Origin: Candidatus Latescibacterota bacterium
GTDB taxonomy: Bacteria > Latescibacterota > UBA2968 > UBA8231
Direction: 5' to 3'
Assembly (NCBI GenBank): GCA_963422735.1
Contig: OY730476.1
Location: 2,144,001 to 2,208,000, forward strand
Length of the DNA: 64,000 bases
In this document: positions 8,201 to 59,407 of the stretch, piece after piece
Layout: each line of letters starts with the position of its first letter
How positions within the stretch are numbered: the stretch's first letter is position 1
Notes under the pieces: model-generated
The model's input: the letters and a program-made list of their open reading frames with translations, nothing else
Told to the model about the DNA's origin: nothing
Databases searched by the model: none
Made by a program: the position numbers and the translations under genes

Positions 8201-9429
8201 TACTCTCCCAGCACCTCCCGGGCAACTCTGAGGATGTTGCCGCCGAGGATTTTGCGGATGTCGTCATCGGCATAACCGCGTTGTACCATGCCGACCGTAA
8301 ACAGCGGGAAGTTTGTCCATGCCGTGCTCTGGAACATGCGCTCTTGGCGCCACTCTGAGCGTTGCACGGGGTCGTTGGCCTCCCACAGTGCTTCCCAGCG
8401 CTGGCGGCTTCCTAGCCGCGCCGGCACCTTGGCACTCTCCTCCTTGGCGCGGCAGCTAATGTAGGCTCGATCCGTGCCAATCGTCACGTGATCGACGCCG
8501 ACGACTTGCACCGCGTGGTCGATGTGGTCAAGCATGGCGTCGATGCAGCCGCTGCCGCCGACAAAGGCCGGCACGTTGGTGATGCCTACAGTTCCGCCCT
8601 TGTCGGCGATTGCCCGCATCACGTCGTCCGGCTTGCAGCGATGGTGGTGGTTCAGGGCCGCGCAAGCCGAATGGCTGGAGACGATCGGCTTTTGCGACAC
8701 CTCGGCCGCCTCTAGGCAGGTCTGCCAGCCGGAGTGGGCCACGTCGGCAATCACGCCGACCTCGTTCATCTCGGCGATCACGGCACGGCCAAAGTCGCTC
8801 AAACCGGCGTTGGCCGGCTCGGCACAGCCGTCGCCGATCGGATTGCGGCGGTTGTAGGTCAGGTGCATCATGCGGCAGCCGAGCTCGAAGAACTGGCTGA
8901 TGAAACGCAGCTCCTGTTCGACCGTGGCCTGCTCTCCTGGGAGGGGCACGCCGTTACACGTCTGGTAGATGCAGTGCCGTCCAGCGGCTTTTGCAGCGAC
9001 AATGTCATCGGGGAAAGCGGCGCGCGCCACGTGGTCGCGCAGGCGATCCGTCAGATGCGTATAGTGCGCCAGCCGTCCCAACATGCGCATGGGGTCGTTG
9101 CCCTCCTCACCGGCGTTTTGCAAGGCGCAAGTCACCCCGGACGCCTCCCAAGCCCCCAAGTACTCGGTCTTTAGCTCGTCGTCATCGGCCCAGCGCGTCA
9201 TTCGCATCTGCTCCGATAGGTACTGCAACTCGACCTCCGAGGCTCGCGCCTCCACGGCCCGCGCCATGGCGTCGCCGTCGATCGGTGCCAGCAGCCCGAG
9301 ACTGTACGACTCGCACACAATCGCGTCGCGATGCAAGGCCAACCCGTGCTCCAACTGCCATGCGGACGGTTGCAGGATTTCAAGCGCCACGGCCCGCGCC
9401 TGCTCGATGTTCTCTTCCCAAGAAGTCAT
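8200..9429 (-). CDS. Membrane dipeptidase (peptidase M19) family protein
   Basis: MMHLTYNRRNPIGDGC, GLSDFGRAVIAEMNEVG, DVAHSG, SSHS, DHVTIGTD; probable start MTSWEE at 9429. Confidence 0.9.
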   Translation of the reverse strand: MTSWEENIEQARAVALEILQPSAWQLEHGLALHRDAIVCESYSLGLLAPIDGDAMARAVEARASEVELQYLSEQMRMTRWADDDELKTEYLGAWEASGVTCALQNAGEEGNDPMRMLGRLAHYTHLTDRLRDHVARAAFPDDIVAAKAAGRHCIYQTCNGVPLPGEQATVEQELRFISQFFELGCRMMHLTYNRRNPIGDGCAEPANAGLSDFGRAVIAEMNEVGVIADVAHSGWQTCLEAAEVSQKPIVSSHSACAALNHHHRCKPDDVMRAIADKGGTVGITNVPAFVGGSGCIDAMLDHIDHAVQVVGVDHVTIGTDRAYISCRAKEESAKVPARLGSRQRWEALWEANDPVQRSEWRQERMFQSTAWTNFPLFTVGMVQRGYADDDIRKILGGNILRVAREVLGE

Positions 9430-10060
9430 GTCTTCTTCCCTTTCTCCGGGCTGAGGAACGGATGGGGATGCCCGGTATAGACCCGCTCGCCGCGCACCAA
9501 GATATTCTCTGGATCGTCCTTGGATACATCGTGCGAGTCGTGCGCGCTGTATCCAAGGGTCATGCTGCTCCGAGAACCATTGCCTCGGTTGACATCGGAG
9601 CCGTGGAAGCAACAGTCGTTGAACAGCAGCACACCACCCGCTGGCATGGGCAGCGGGCGCCGGAAGTCGCCGCTGGGACGGAGCGGCTTTGCAAAGGGCC
9701 GCAAGTGACTGCCTATAACCAGATGCACACAGCCGTTGTCGATGGTCAATTCCTCCAGATAGATGAGCGCCGTGATTAAGGTCGGCTCGTACAACTCCTC
9801 GCCGGAATGCCACGGCACCAGGGCTGAGCCCGGCGGGCGCACCATGATGTGGTTGTGCTTGTTGGTCAGCAGTTCGATGTTGTCGCCGAGTATGCCCGTG
9901 AGTTAGTGGTTAGTGATCAGTGATCAGTGATCACTGATCAGTGATCAGTGACAGCAGTTCGATGTTGTCGCCGAGTATGCCCGTGAGGGCAACGAGCGCG
10001 ATCGGGTAGGTCGCTGCTTCGAGATACACTGGATCCCGCAGGCGACGCACGTCTTGAGAT
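9426..10060 (-). pseudogene. PhyH-family dioxygenase disrupted by heptamer-array insertion and 5' loss
   Basis: VRRLRDPVYLEAATYPIALVALTGILGDNIELL | insertion | LTGILGDNIELLTNKHNHIMVRPPGSALVPWHSGE..NGCVHLVIGSH..FHGSDVN. Confidence 0.8.
9867..9987. repeat. Exact 36-bp direct repeats (9867-9902, 9952-9987) enclosing seven heptamers (9903-9951)
   Basis: cagcagttcgatgttgtcgccgagtatgcccgtgag twice; insert ttagtgg ttagtga tcagtga tcagtga tcactga tcagtga tcagtga. Confidence 0.97.
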
Positions 10061-10171
10061 GTGCGCGAATTGGTGCCGGTCGCCCCGGTTGACCAGCCTA
10101 TGATAATCCGCTTTTATCCATATCAATAAAATTATACGGCTATACGGCAGACTACGGATTTTTATTCATAC

Positions 10172-10585
10172 ATGCAATCGGAGGAACAAGACATGACAGA
10201 AAAACTATACGAAGCCGCTTTTCCGTATGCCGAGGACATTCTCGCCTTGCCAGTGGAAGATCTCGACCAAACCGCAACGTGGTATAGAGCGGCGTTTGGA
10301 CTCGCCGAGGTCGAAAGACGCGACGACCCCGTGCCGACGGTCATTCTCGAACGCGATGGTGTGCAGATCGGGTTTGCGGTCAACGGCGGCGATGCCAGCC
10401 AAGAGGGCGCGGCTATTCTGGTGAACGACATCTACAAAGCCCGCGACGAGCTGGAAGCAAATGGTGTCGAGACGGGCAATTGGCGCATGGACGAGCGCGA
10501 TGGAAAGAAATACCAGGTTTTCTTCGTAGTCGCCCCCGACGGGCTTTGTTACTACTTCCACCAGCCAATTGAAAACGCCGGATAG
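10172..10585 (+). CDS. VOC/glyoxalase family protein
   Basis: LPVEDLDQTATWY..FGL, FFVVAPDGLCYYF; start may be 10193 (GGAGG SD). Confidence 0.85.
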   Translation: MQSEEQDMTEKLYEAAFPYAEDILALPVEDLDQTATWYRAAFGLAEVERRDDPVPTVILERDGVQIGFAVNGGDASQEGAAILVNDIYKARDELEANGVETGNWRMDERDGKKYQVFFVVAPDGLCYYFHQPIENAG

Positions 10586-36039: not shown

Positions 36040-36101
36040 AGCAGTGGCCTGTGGCCTGTCCCAGCCCCTGACCACTAACCACTAACCACTAACCACTAAC
36101 C
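36040..36101. repeat. Short heptamer array (ACCACTA)x4 with inverted degenerate units, between convergent genes
   Basis: gcagtgg cctgtgg .. cccctg accacta accacta accacta accacta acc. Confidence 0.85.
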
Positions 36102-37424: not shown

Positions 37425-37618
37425 CTGACCCCTAACCCCTGACCCCTGACCCCTAACCCCTGACCCCTGACCCCTGACCCCTAACCCCTGACCCCTGACC
37501 CCTGACCCCTGACCCCTGACCCCTGACCCCTGACCCCTGACCCCTGACCCCTGACCCCTGACCACTGACCCCTGACCCCTGACCCCTGACCACTGACCAC
37601 TGACCACTGACCACTGAC
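37425..37618. repeat. Long heptamer tandem array (CTGACCC/CTAACCC/CTGACCA), about 27-28 units
   Basis: 194 nt of near-perfect 7-mer periodicity; reads GGGGTCA/GGGGTTA on the minus strand. Confidence 0.98.
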
Positions 37619-43179: not shown

Positions 43180-43216
43180 GTTTGGAACTATGATCCGATT
43201 TCTAGGGGATCGGAAC
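43180..43216 (+). CRISPR. Isolated 37-nt CRISPR-like repeat (degenerate), copy 1
   Basis: gtttggaactatgatccgatttctaggggatcggaac; 28/37 identical to 43666-43702. Confidence 0.55.
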
Positions 43217-43345
43217 GCCTATGACGCCTTCTACGACAAGCGGACAGGCTGGAGCGGTTCGGGCGGCGTGTTGTGCGCCCGCTCATGTTTATCGGCTTGC
43301 TTATTTGGATTCTAATCTAACAACCTAATCCATAAGAGGTTGATT

Positions 43346-43657
43346 ATGTCTTTTGGCGAATTCTTGTTTGGTCTTGCAGCGGAGCTGACGGAGGAACAGG
43401 AGAAACGTCGGCGATACCTATCCCTACAAAGTCATATTCTAGACGGCCGTAGGAATAGGTATCACCCGGTTCTGGCCGGGCGTAAATGCCGTACACCCTC
43501 CTTGGCTAATAATAGGTCTGCCCGTTTTTTAATTCGGTCTTGCCGAAATTCTTCAGACGGGGTGGCTAACAGCCATGTTCTGGGCGATCGTAGGAATAGG
43601 TATCACCCAACTATTCTTGGCCGAGCCACATCAAGGAGGCCGTTTTGGGGCTTTTAG
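43346..43657 (+). pseudogene. Small lower-GC gene, probably a degraded membrane protein, between CRISPR-like repeats
   Basis: AGAGG SD + ATG; alternative frame gives TAVGIGITRFW..WLIIGLPVF..WLTAMFWAIVGIGITQLFL; internal duplication cgtaggaataggtatcaccc. Confidence 0.5.
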
Positions 43658-43665
43658 CCTAACCC

Positions 43666-43702
43666 ATTTAGAATGTTGGCCCGATTTCTAGGGGATTGAA
43701 AC
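43666..43702 (+). CRISPR. Isolated 37-nt CRISPR-like repeat, copy 2
   Basis: atttagaatgttggcccgatttctaggggattgaaac; canonical ATTGAAAC 3' end preceded by a ccc..ggg stem. Confidence 0.65.
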
Positions 43703-43749
43703 GTGAGTTCACTTAGTTCGGCAGCAAACCAAAACAAAGGAAAACACCC

Positions 43750-59323: not shown

Positions 59324-59356
59324 GAGGTTTTGTTCCTTTCGGGAAAAGGTGCTTTG

Positions 59357-59404
59357 TTAGTGGTTAGTGGTCAGTGGTTAGTGGGGACTAATCACTAATC
59401 ACTA
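59357..59404. repeat. Inverted heptamer array (TYAGTGG)x4 / (ATCACTA)x2
   Basis: ttagtgg ttagtgg tcagtgg ttagtgg ggacta atcacta atcacta; can fold back as a hairpin. Confidence 0.9.
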
Positions 59405-59407
59405 AAT

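What the first reader, a model, noticed from the sequence alone, without database searches (positions are those of the whole stretch)
9867..9987. Seven heptamer repeats inserted into a gene with an exact 36-bp target-site duplication
Seen: the PhyH frame (..ALVALTGILGDNIELL-TNKHNHIM..) is interrupted by exactly 49 nt (7x7: ttagtgg ttagtga tcagtga tcagtga tcactga tcagtga tcagtga). The insert is flanked by identical 36-bp copies of coding sequence and contains overlapping 20-bp palindromes (9921-9940, 9928-9947). The repeat unit matches arrays elsewhere in the window, not the local sequence, so simple slippage does not explain it. Established: IS target duplications are usually only 2-14 bp, off-target Cas1-Cas2 integration duplicates a repeat-length target, and target-primed RT insertions also leave duplications. 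Inference: this may be a recent insertion event showing that these heptamer arrays are mobile, via a Cas1-like integrase (37-nt CRISPR-like repeats exist at 43180 and 43666) or a telomerase-like RT. Fold-back template switching is an alternative.
Basis: partly seen in the sequence, partly recalled or inferred. Interest (0 to 1): 0.75.

Follow-up and report, generated by a model that had tools for sequence, protein, structure and literature searches.

The report
Stray CRISPR spacer insertion of heptamers
A 49-base block of 7-base repeats flanked by an exact 36-base duplication inside a decayed gene is a real, recent insertion, most likely pasted in at the wrong place by the bacterium's own CRISPR spacer integrase, a reaction known from laboratory E. 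coli but seldom caught in nature.

Summary
In detail: 36 bp (9867-9902) + 49 bp of seven heptamers (9903-9951) + the same 36 bp (9952-9987), in a PhyH pseudogene. It is a true, recent insertion. Five congeners have the empty site. A 2013 run holds a contig that skips exactly these 85 bp with 0 mismatches in 461 bp, while 2023 runs bridge both junctions.

The footprint is not specific to heptamers. The genome holds three more insert-plus-duplication events with empty sites in congeners: duplications of 37, 37 and 29 bp (37 with two mismatches), inserts of 35, 42 and 40 (32) bp. The genome's only Cas1-Cas2 (type III-B locus) sits beside a CRISPR array with 37-nt repeats and 36-45-nt spacers. No reverse transcriptase was found.

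In congener G004, two events have exactly its type I-E geometry (28/29 + 33/32 = 61). They have repeat-like targets, and one insert is self-derived with an AAG flank.

Best reading (0.68): off-target Cas1-Cas2 spacer integration with a heptamer-array fragment as cargo. This is a known kind of event. Earlier notes of this scan report the same footprint in other genomes.

The parts
9867..9902 (.). Left copy of the 36-bp target-site duplication (PhyH coding sequence)
   Evidence: Identical to 9952-9987. It is single-copy in 5 congeners and in contigs of runs X1 and X2.
9903..9951 (+). 49-bp insert: seven heptamers of the genome's T[TC]AGTG[GA] family, the presumed mis-integrated spacer
   Evidence: It is absent from congeners and from the 2013 and 2015 contigs, which skip exactly 85 bp. 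Its first 31 nt equal the start of the array at G000:300831. No full-length exact donor exists in the genome; the best match is 46 of 49. It is hairpin-prone as ssDNA.
9952..9987 (.). Right copy of the 36-bp target-site duplication
9426..10113 (-). PhyH (phytanoyl-CoA dioxygenase family) pseudogene that received the insertion
   Evidence: Pfam PF05721 on 9426-9902. The frame is restored when the 85 bp are removed. Compared with G001 it is 5'-truncated and has a 15-bp deletion.
37425..37618 (-). Large heptamer array (27.7 units); probable donor of the insert of the sister event D at G000:3918112
   Evidence: TRF. The only 35-nt exact match to the D insert in the genome lies at G000:2181575, which is window 37575-37609.
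36071..36101 (.). Small heptamer array of the same family (ACCACTA x 4.4)
   Evidence: TRF. It shows that this repeat family is native to the genome.
59356..59405 (.). Two abutting small heptamer arrays (GTTAGTG x 4.1, ACTAATC x 2.7)
   Evidence: TRF.
43181..43703 (+). Two degenerate 37-nt CRISPR-like repeats (43181-43217, 43667-43703) flanking 449 bp. This is a relic or solitary-repeat pair, not the active array.
   Evidence: the repeat finder reports 78% identity. They resemble the 37-nt repeats beside Cas1 in congeners. The active array and cas1-cas2 lie outside the window, at G000:905554-908125.

Best explanation
The 85 extra bases are the footprint of a CRISPR spacer integrated at a non-CRISPR site.

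Proposed mechanism: the genome's own Cas1-Cas2 integrase, encoded beside a type III-B effector locus, captured a short double-stranded fragment of one of the genome's heptamer arrays. It joined the fragment's two 3' ends to the two strands of the PhyH pseudogene about one repeat length apart. Repair of the two single-stranded gaps then duplicated the 36 bp between the attack points.

Shown here: the insertion is real and recent; the duplication length matches the repeat length to within 1 bp; cas1-cas2 are present and intact; sister events exist.

Inferred: that Cas1-Cas2 did it; that the cargo came from a heptamer array because these hairpin-prone arrays shed fragments; and that the 49-bp length, 4 bp beyond the longest canonical spacer, reflects either a loose length ruler or a later gain of one 7-bp unit by slippage.

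The new 'repeats' do not resemble the real repeat. The unit is therefore probably inert as immunity and simply a mutation.
For: 1. It is a real and recent insertion.
- The site is empty in 5 of the 5 congeners that carry the orthologous site.
- Run X1 (2013) has a 461-nt contig that skips 9867-9951 exactly, with 0 other differences. Run X2 (2015) also skips 85 bp.
- Runs X15 and X19 (2023, two studies) hold error-free unitigs across both junctions.

2. The geometry matches.
- The genome's single Cas1 (345 aa, full-length Pfam match) and Cas2 follow cmr genes and precede an array of 14 repeats of 37 nt.
- A second small array also has 37-nt repeats.
- Canonical spacers are 34-45 nt long.

3. 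There are sister events in the same genome. All have empty sites in congeners.
- Event A: G000:828788, 37 + 35.
- Event B: G000:4569990, 37 + 42.
- Event D: G000:3918112, 29 + 40. Read alternatively, this is 37 with 2 mismatches plus a clean 32-nt heptamer fragment.

4. B's insert is not a copy of the genome's own DNA. It has 3 mismatches in 42 to the genome's own sulfatase-like gene, but only 1 to congener G018. A's insert has no match in the 30 congeners.

5. An independent test in congener G004, using 2.4 of the 4.17 Mb of contig C1, found 4 clean events.
- Two have period 61 (29 + 32 and 28 + 33). This equals G004's I-E-like array: 29-nt repeat, period 61, 116 copies.
- Their targets resemble that repeat: 16 of 28 and 14 of 28 positions, P 0.0009 and 0.014.
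- Both inserts start with G when read as 33-mers.
- One insert is 100% identical to G004's own gene, with 5' flank AAG.
- The other two events have 37- and 35-bp duplications, and G004 has a 37-nt-repeat array.
- The empty site was seen for g6 in 5 of 5 relatives and for g5 in G036.

6. Canonical spacers avoid self: 16 of 16 have no match in the genome's own DNA. Off-target inserts are often self or near-self. That is expected if off-target units make no crRNA.

7. Literature. Off-target integration by Cas1-Cas2 is established in E. coli and in vitro. I saw passages about Nivala et al. 2018 in citing papers and the abstract on the second-site ruler in PMC6895254.
Against: - The duplication is 36 bp, not 37.
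- The insert is 49 bp, whereas the 16 canonical spacers are 34-45 nt.
- The target does not resemble either 37-nt repeat (6-10 of 37 positions, P 0.7-0.99; at a 1-bp shift 14 of 37, P 0.12). The same holds for events A, B, g5 and g7. For the whole 37-nt class, the link to Cas1-Cas2 therefore rests on length alone.
- None of 297 canonical spacers beside Cas1 in 28 arrays of the genus (30 Cas1 loci were scanned; 2 had no array) contains two or more heptamer units, so heptamers are not seen as ordinary spacers.
- The exact duplication in event D is 29 bp, in a genome with no 29-nt repeat.
- An older event, G (G000:214912), has only a 24-26-bp duplication.
- No full-length exact donor for the 49 bp exists in the genome.
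- No experiment links this integrase to the event.
Confidence: 0.68

Rival explanations
1. Replicative template switching, or microhomology-mediated break repair. A nascent strand left the PhyH template, copied seven units from a heptamer array (or folded back on itself), then re-primed 36 bp upstream of where it left. The result is a duplication with a templated filler.
For: - The insert is quasi-palindromic and hairpin-prone.
- Heptamer-like bases lie at both edges of the target: GGTCAG just before the duplication and GTGAG at its end.
- The D insert is an exact 35-nt copy of the genome's own array.
Against: - There is no true microhomology at either junction; each needs a 1-nt indel.
- Duplication lengths cluster at 35-37, and at 28-29 where an I-E system exists, rather than spreading widely.
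- B's insert differs from the genome's own copy at 3 of 42 positions while its 37-bp duplication is perfect.
- A's insert has no template in the 31 genus genomes searched (G000 and 30 congeners).
- The I-E-class events carry an AAG flank and have repeat-like targets.
Confidence: 0.12
2. An undescribed process, unrelated to Cas proteins, that inserts short, often hairpin-forming DNA with a long compensating target duplication.
For: - Note e1-5079327 (unchecked here).
- Two of the 8 inserts examined fold unusually well: the finding (z -5.9) and A (z -3.8).
- Targets of the 37-nt class do not resemble the repeat.
Against: - The total added length is not constant here: 61, 61, 69, 69, 72, 75, 79 and 85 bp.
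- Six of the 8 inserts do not fold better than shuffles.
- The I-E-class events show the hallmarks of Cas1-Cas2.
Confidence: 0.1
3. Heptamer arrays are autonomous mobile DNA, moved by a dedicated integrase or extended by a telomerase-like reverse transcriptase from an RNA template.
For: - Two of the four events in this genome carry heptamers, although arrays make up about 0.1% of the genome.
Against: - No RVT_1 match in the genome.
- Events A and B have the same footprint with unrelated inserts.
- 93 of the 95 arrays lack flanking duplications.
- None of the four events found in G004 carries heptamers.
Confidence: 0.04
4. Assembly or amplification artefact (chimeric read, collapsed repeat).
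For: The genome is a metagenome-assembled single contig. Short-read unitigs break inside the heptamers.
Against: - Unitigs with 0 mismatches cross both junctions in runs of two studies.
- The exact complementary empty allele exists in two other runs.
- Three sister events exist in the same genome, and comparable events in a second genome.
Confidence: 0.01

Closest known systems
Off-target ('non-canonical') spacer integration by Cas1-Cas2, giving neo-CRISPR units (Nivala, Shipman and Church 2018, Nat Microbiol). The paper itself was not held. I know it from passages in citing papers.
   Same: A spacer-sized insert sits between two copies of a target stretch about one repeat long, outside any CRISPR array, in a genome with active-looking cas1-cas2. 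It can disrupt genes.
   Different: - This is a natural event in an uncultivated bacterium without over-expression.
- The integrase is associated with a type III-B locus with 37-nt repeats, not E. coli I-E.
- The cargo is a fragment of a native heptamer microsatellite.
- The duplication is 1 bp short and the insert 4 bp longer than any canonical spacer.
- The target does not resemble the repeat.
Canonical spacer acquisition at the leader-proximal repeat, with a second-site molecular ruler (abstract of PMC6895254; passages of PMC6698737)
   Same: Two-step transesterification on opposite strands at a fixed distance, so the sequence between the attack points is duplicated.
   Different: There is no leader and no repeat motifs at the target. 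That may be why the length is 36 and not 37.
Transposon and IS target-site duplications, and casposon integration (duplication sizes recalled, not from a call)
   Same: Staggered joining followed by gap repair duplicates the target.
   Different: As recalled, those duplications are 2-15 bp. They flank elements with terminal inverted repeats and a transposase or casposase gene. Here the insert is 49 bp of simple repeat and the duplication is 36 bp.
Templated insertions with flanking duplications from microhomology-mediated replication or end joining (recalled)
   Same: A duplication with a filler copied from elsewhere.
   Different: As recalled, such events show junction microhomology and no preferred duplication length. 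Here the lengths cluster at CRISPR repeat lengths.

Membership tests
Off-target Cas1-Cas2 spacer integration (neo-CRISPR unit) | It is an insertion relative to an ancestral empty site, with a direct duplication of the target abutting both ends of the insert | tested here: met
   5 of 5 congeners with the site are empty. Contigs of X1 and X2 skip exactly 85 bp, with 36 bases fitting either side.
Off-target Cas1-Cas2 spacer integration (neo-CRISPR unit) | Duplication length equals the repeat length of a CRISPR system in the same genome | tested here: met
   It is met within 1 bp: 36 bp against 37-nt repeats in both arrays. Sister events A and B are exactly 37. In G004, two events match the 61-bp I-E period exactly.
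Off-target Cas1-Cas2 spacer integration (neo-CRISPR unit) | Insert length falls within the spacer length range of that system | tested here: not met
   49 bp against 34-45 nt for the 16 canonical spacers. Sister inserts of 35 and 42 bp are in range. A gain of one 7-bp unit by slippage would account for the excess, but this is an inference.
Off-target Cas1-Cas2 spacer integration (neo-CRISPR unit) | Intact cas1 and cas2 in the genome | tested here: met
   Cas1 is 345 aa and covers PF01867 positions 1-282 of 283 (E 3.5e-83). Cas2 matches PF09827 (E 6.4e-18). Both lie next to cmr genes and the array.
Off-target Cas1-Cas2 spacer integration (neo-CRISPR unit) | Target resembles the repeat or the leader-repeat junction | tested here: not met
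   6-10 of 37 positions match (P 0.7-0.99); at a 1-bp shift the best is 14 of 37 (P 0.12). The feature is met only for the I-E-class events in G004 (P 0.0009 and 0.014) and for event D (P 0.009).
Off-target Cas1-Cas2 spacer integration (neo-CRISPR unit) | Protospacer with the system's PAM | not testable with these tools
   The cargo is a repeat with many possible donors, and the PAM needs of this type III-linked module are unknown. For G004 event g1, the 5' flank is AAG.
Off-target Cas1-Cas2 spacer integration (neo-CRISPR unit) | Catalysis by the integrase shown directly | not testable with these tools
   This needs biochemistry or genetics.
Functional CRISPR array | Repeats that the system's Cas6 can process, a leader, and at least two spacers | tested here: not met
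   The two 36-mers are PhyH coding sequence unlike either repeat. There is one insert only.
Reverse-transcriptase or telomerase-like repeat addition | A reverse transcriptase gene in the genome | tested here: not met
   No PF00078 match at E <= 0.001 in the 4.95-Mb genome, which is 95% complete by marker genes.
IS element or MITE | Terminal inverted repeats, a short (2-14 bp) duplication, and multiple identical copies | tested here: not met
   The duplication is 36 bp. The insert is a simple repeat with no full-length identical copy elsewhere.

The most novel reading that the evidence does not exclude
The hairpin-prone heptamer microsatellites, which have stop codons in every frame, are a preferred self-source of prespacers for the type III-B-linked Cas1-Cas2. 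Off-target integration then seeds new microsatellite loci that later grow by slippage. On this reading the CRISPR adaptation machinery acts, in natural symbiont populations, as a disperser of tandem repeats and as an insertional mutagen. Off-target units would record the raw prespacer pool before selection against self-targeting.
Probability: 0.15. Interest if true: 0.75.

Novelty: new member of a known kind. Interest (0 to 1): 0.55.

Why it matters
Off-target spacer integration has been shown mainly with over-expressed E. coli Cas1-Cas2. One citing text says it is unclear how often it happens in nature (passages). It has also been proposed as one origin of isolated CRISPR arrays (passage).

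This case adds the following:
- A dated-looking polymorphism: the empty allele in a 2013 run and the filled allele in 2023 runs.
- Four events in one genome and four in 2.4 Mb of a relative.
- Two integrase classes whose footprints follow their own repeat lengths.

Such footprints measure a hidden cost of carrying CRISPR adaptation genes, namely gene disruption. They also expose what the integrase samples when selection against self-targeting is absent. Here that is self or near-self DNA, including a simple-repeat array.

Tried and rejected
- Cyanobacterial STRR/HIP1 context: rejected. HIP1 occurs 191 times against about 144 expected. Relatives carry titles of Ca. Latescibacterota or Gemmatimonadota MAGs.
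- Literature searches for the heptamer motif and for heptanucleotide repeats with target-site duplication gave nothing relevant.
- RT hypothesis: no RVT_1.
- Other insert-plus-duplication candidates were dropped:
  - F (G000:4065508, 23 + 35) is present in 30 of 30 congeners, so it is not an insertion.
  - H, g2 and g3 are diverged tandem repeats.
  - E, K and g4 are paired hairpin or terminator-like elements.
  - G004:1638668 is a 78-bp tandem unit with heptamer-like parts.
  - I (G000:1349289, 22 + 32) was not followed up.
  - Protein-repeat periods (ankyrin-like and others) were ignored.
- G (G000:214912, 24-26 + 36-38) is an old insertion shared by several species and empty in G018, G040 and G042. 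It is kept as evidence against a strict ruler.
- Flanks of g1 and g7 are not conserved in the 5 relatives searched, so their empty sites could not be checked.
- Heptamer spacers in true arrays: none among 297 spacers (28 arrays at 30 Cas1 loci scanned).
- Source of A's insert: no match in 30 congeners at 3 or fewer mismatches, none exact in IMG/VR, and none for a 31-nt part in JGI metagenome contigs.
- Source of g5's insert: no exact match in IMG/VR.
- The multi-copy loci G000:4183300 and G000:4873087 look like whole-unit tandem duplications, because their 'spacers' are identical. They are not successive integrations.
- The papers of Nivala 2018 and Shmakov 2020 are not held. Supplementary files were not consulted.

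Full report
**1. The observation**

Window 9867-9902 and 9952-9987 are identical 36-mers. Exactly 49 nt lie between them, read as seven heptamers (TTAGTGG, TTAGTGA, TCAGTGA x2, TCACTGA, TCAGTGA x2). The identity does not extend by one base on either side.

The minus strand encodes a PhyH-family protein (PF05721, E 1.7e-15). Removing the 85 bp rejoins the frame.

The gene was already decayed. Compared with the 249-codon gene of congener G001, it lacks about 45 N-terminal codons and has a 15-bp deletion.

The heptamers belong to a genome-wide family, T[TC]A[GC][TG]G[GA]. There are 95 loci of at least 3 units, 4,942 bp in all, and none in the reversed genome. Three of these arrays lie in the window.

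**2. It is a real and recent insertion**

The window is G000:C1:2144001-2208000 of a single-contig genome of 4.95 Mb and 59.5% G+C.

Of 31 genomes searched, five congeners (G001, G005, G009, G010, G011) align across the site at 83-86% identity. All five have one copy of the 36-mer and no heptamers.

Contigs of four public runs were laid on 9400-10400.
- X1 (2013) has a 461-nt contig covering 9617-9866 and 9952-10162 with no other difference, so it skips exactly 85 bp.
- X2 (2015) has an 803-nt contig with the same skip and 16 differences.
- X15 and X19 (2023, two studies) have error-free unitigs over 9873-9931/9932 and, in X15, 9904-9981. These cross both junctions.

One of these runs may be the source of the assembly, so X15 and X19 are not fully independent of the window. 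The empty allele already carries the truncated 5' end of the gene. A misassembly is therefore excluded, and the event is younger than any substitution in 461 bp of flank.

**3. Is it specific to heptamers? No**

Flank-to-flank comparison of all heptamer arrays found one other clean case: event D at G000:3918112. It has a 29-bp exact duplication and a 40-bp insert. Read alternatively, it is 37 bp with two mismatches around a clean 32-nt heptamer fragment. The other 93 arrays have no flanking duplication.

A genome-wide scan for two-copy direct repeats with a filler found two more events with non-heptamer inserts.
- Event A: G000:828788, 37 + 35, in frame in a kinase-like ORF.
- Event B: G000:4569990, 37 + 42, in a HEPN-like ORF.

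All three have empty sites in congeners.
- A: all 6 congeners with a match lack the 72 bp (4 are aligned).
- B: 4 of 4 aligned congeners are empty.
- D: 7 genomes show overlapping hits on a single copy, and 3 of 3 aligned are empty.

Candidate F proved to be conserved in 30 of 30 congeners and was dropped. Candidate G is an older shared insertion with only a 24-26-bp duplication.

**4. The integrase candidate**

The genome has one Cas1 and no RVT_1 reverse transcriptase. Cas1 (345 aa) and Cas2 follow Cmr2-, Cmr3-, RAMP-, Cmr5- and Csm6-type genes, which is a type III-B locus. They precede an array of 14 identical 37-nt repeats.

A second array of 4 repeats, also 37 nt, lies at G000:3169196. 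Canonical spacers are 36-45 and 34-35 nt long.

The duplications of A and B (37), of the finding (36) and, on one reading, of D (37) thus equal the repeat length. Inserts of 35 and 42 bp are spacer-sized. The finding's 49 bp exceeds the longest spacer by 4.

**5. Where the inserts came from**

- B's insert matches a sulfatase-like gene. The genome's own copy differs at 3 of 42 positions, congener G018 at 1, and six other congeners at 2-3. The 37-bp duplication is perfect, so the DNA probably came from a related cell and was not copied from this chromosome.
- A's insert has no match in 30 congeners, in IMG/VR or in JGI metagenome contigs.
- D's insert has its only 35-nt exact match in the window's own large array, at 37575-37609.
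- The finding's insert shares its first 31 nt with the start of the array at G000:300831. It has no full-length exact donor; the best match is 46 of 49.

Two of four inserts come from arrays that make up about 0.1% of the genome. That is a strong bias, and I cannot explain it beyond noting that the finding's insert is an unusually stable ssDNA hairpin (z -5.9). D's insert is not.

**6. An independent test in another genome**

I fetched 2.4 of the 4.17 Mb of contig C1 of congener G004 and ran the same scan. Four clean events emerged:
- g1: 29 + 32.
- g6: 28 + 33.
- g5: 37 + 32.
- g7: 35 + 40, or 37 with one mismatch + 38.

G004 has three CRISPR arrays:
- An I-E-like array with a 29-nt repeat and a constant period of 61 (116 copies).
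- A 37-nt-repeat array with periods of 71-77.
- A 32-nt-repeat array.

g1 and g6 both add exactly 61 bp. Their targets match the I-E repeat at 16 and 14 of 28 positions (P 0.0009 and 0.014 against random sites). Read as 33-mers, both inserts begin with G.

g1's insert is 100% identical to G004's own gene at C1:732093 and to G036, with the 5' flank AAG. From memory, AAG is the E. coli I-E PAM, whose G enters the array.

The empty site for g6 was seen in 5 of 5 relatives, and for g5 in G036. The flanks of g1 and g7 are not conserved, so those sites could not be checked.

This shows that off-target integration by Cas1-Cas2 operates in this genus, and that the footprint follows the local repeat length.

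**7. What remains weak for the finding itself**

- The 37-nt class (A, B, the finding, g5, g7) is tied to Cas1-Cas2 by length only. Their targets do not resemble the 37-nt repeats.
- None of 297 canonical spacers beside Cas1 in 28 arrays of the genus (30 Cas1 loci were scanned; 2 had no array) contains heptamers.
- The finding's numbers are 36 and 49, not 37 and at most 45.
- Without repeat-internal motifs the second attack may slip by a base. The abstract of PMC6895254 says second-site choice depends on a repeat element. A tandem heptamer can also gain a unit. Both ideas are inferences.
- That canonical spacers avoid self (16 of 16), while off-target inserts are often self or near-self, fits units that make no crRNA and so escape selection against self-targeting. 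This is also an inference.

**8. Comparison with what is known**

Passages in citing papers describe Nivala et al. 2018 as showing off-target integration and 'neo-CRISPR' arrays in E. coli over-expressing Cas1-Cas2, with circumstantial evidence in two other species. P. furiosus Cas1-Cas2 integrates in vitro at non-CRISPR sites that share features with repeats. Off-target acquisition is listed as one proposed origin of isolated arrays. I could not read Nivala 2018 or Shmakov 2020 themselves.

Earlier notes of this scan report the same footprint in other genomes. They include 36-37-bp duplications with hairpin inserts, and one case judged not CRISPR-like. I did not check those.

**9. Verdict**

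The event is a natural member of a known kind, off-target spacer integration. Its unusual points are a microsatellite fragment as cargo, a type III-B-linked integrase, a population polymorphism, and several sister events.

Confidence is 0.68 and interest 0.55.

Noticed in passing
window 43181-43217 and 43667-43703: Two degenerate 37-nt CRISPR-like repeats, 78% alike and 486 bp apart. They enclose a segment with its own 38-nt direct repeats and 18-nt inverted repeats, and they resemble the 37-nt repeats beside Cas1 in congeners. This could be a relic array or a solitary-repeat cassette.
   Followed up: partly
G000:4183300-4183600 and G000:4872950-4873450 (outside the window): Tandem units of 88 and 100 bp, three copies each. 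Every unit is a unique segment plus a short heptamer block, and the copies are nearly identical, including the heptamers. They look like unequal exchange between flanking heptamer blocks.
   Followed up: no
G000:4096318-4096404 (outside the window): A 27-nt GC-rich hairpin-like element occurs twice, 60 bp apart, next to heptamers. A similar motif lies inside the 88-bp units at G000:4183300.
   Followed up: no
window 9426-10170: The PhyH gene lacks about 45 N-terminal codons and 5 internal codons compared with G001. The region between it and the next gene differs between congeners by deletions of about 2 kb.
   Followed up: partly
G000:907934-908125 (outside the window): The last two spacers of the main CRISPR array are identical, so a repeat-spacer unit has been duplicated.
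   Followed up: no
G000:4569990-4570105 and G000:2238471-2238512 (outside the window): The 42-bp insert of event B is closer to the sulfatase-like gene of congener G018 (1 mismatch) than to this genome's own copy (3 mismatches). This suggests uptake of DNA from a co-resident relative.
   Followed up: yes
G000:214912-214997 (outside the window): An older insert-plus-duplication unit (24-26 + 36-38 bp) is shared by G006, G037, G038 and others, and is empty in G018, G040 and G042. Its duplication length fits no repeat seen in this genome.
   Followed up: partly
genus-wide, Cas1 loci L135-L164: 20 of 31 genus genomes have Cas1, often two to four per genome. Repeat lengths are 28/29, 32 and 36/37 nt. 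Several Cas1 hits lie in open frames of about 575 aa, which suggests fusions. These were not examined.
   Followed up: no
window 37425-37618 and all arrays of the family: Every unit variant carries a stop codon on each strand (TAG or TGA; TAA or TGA). An array of three or more units therefore closes all six frames. I read this from the sequence and did not test it as a function.
   Followed up: no
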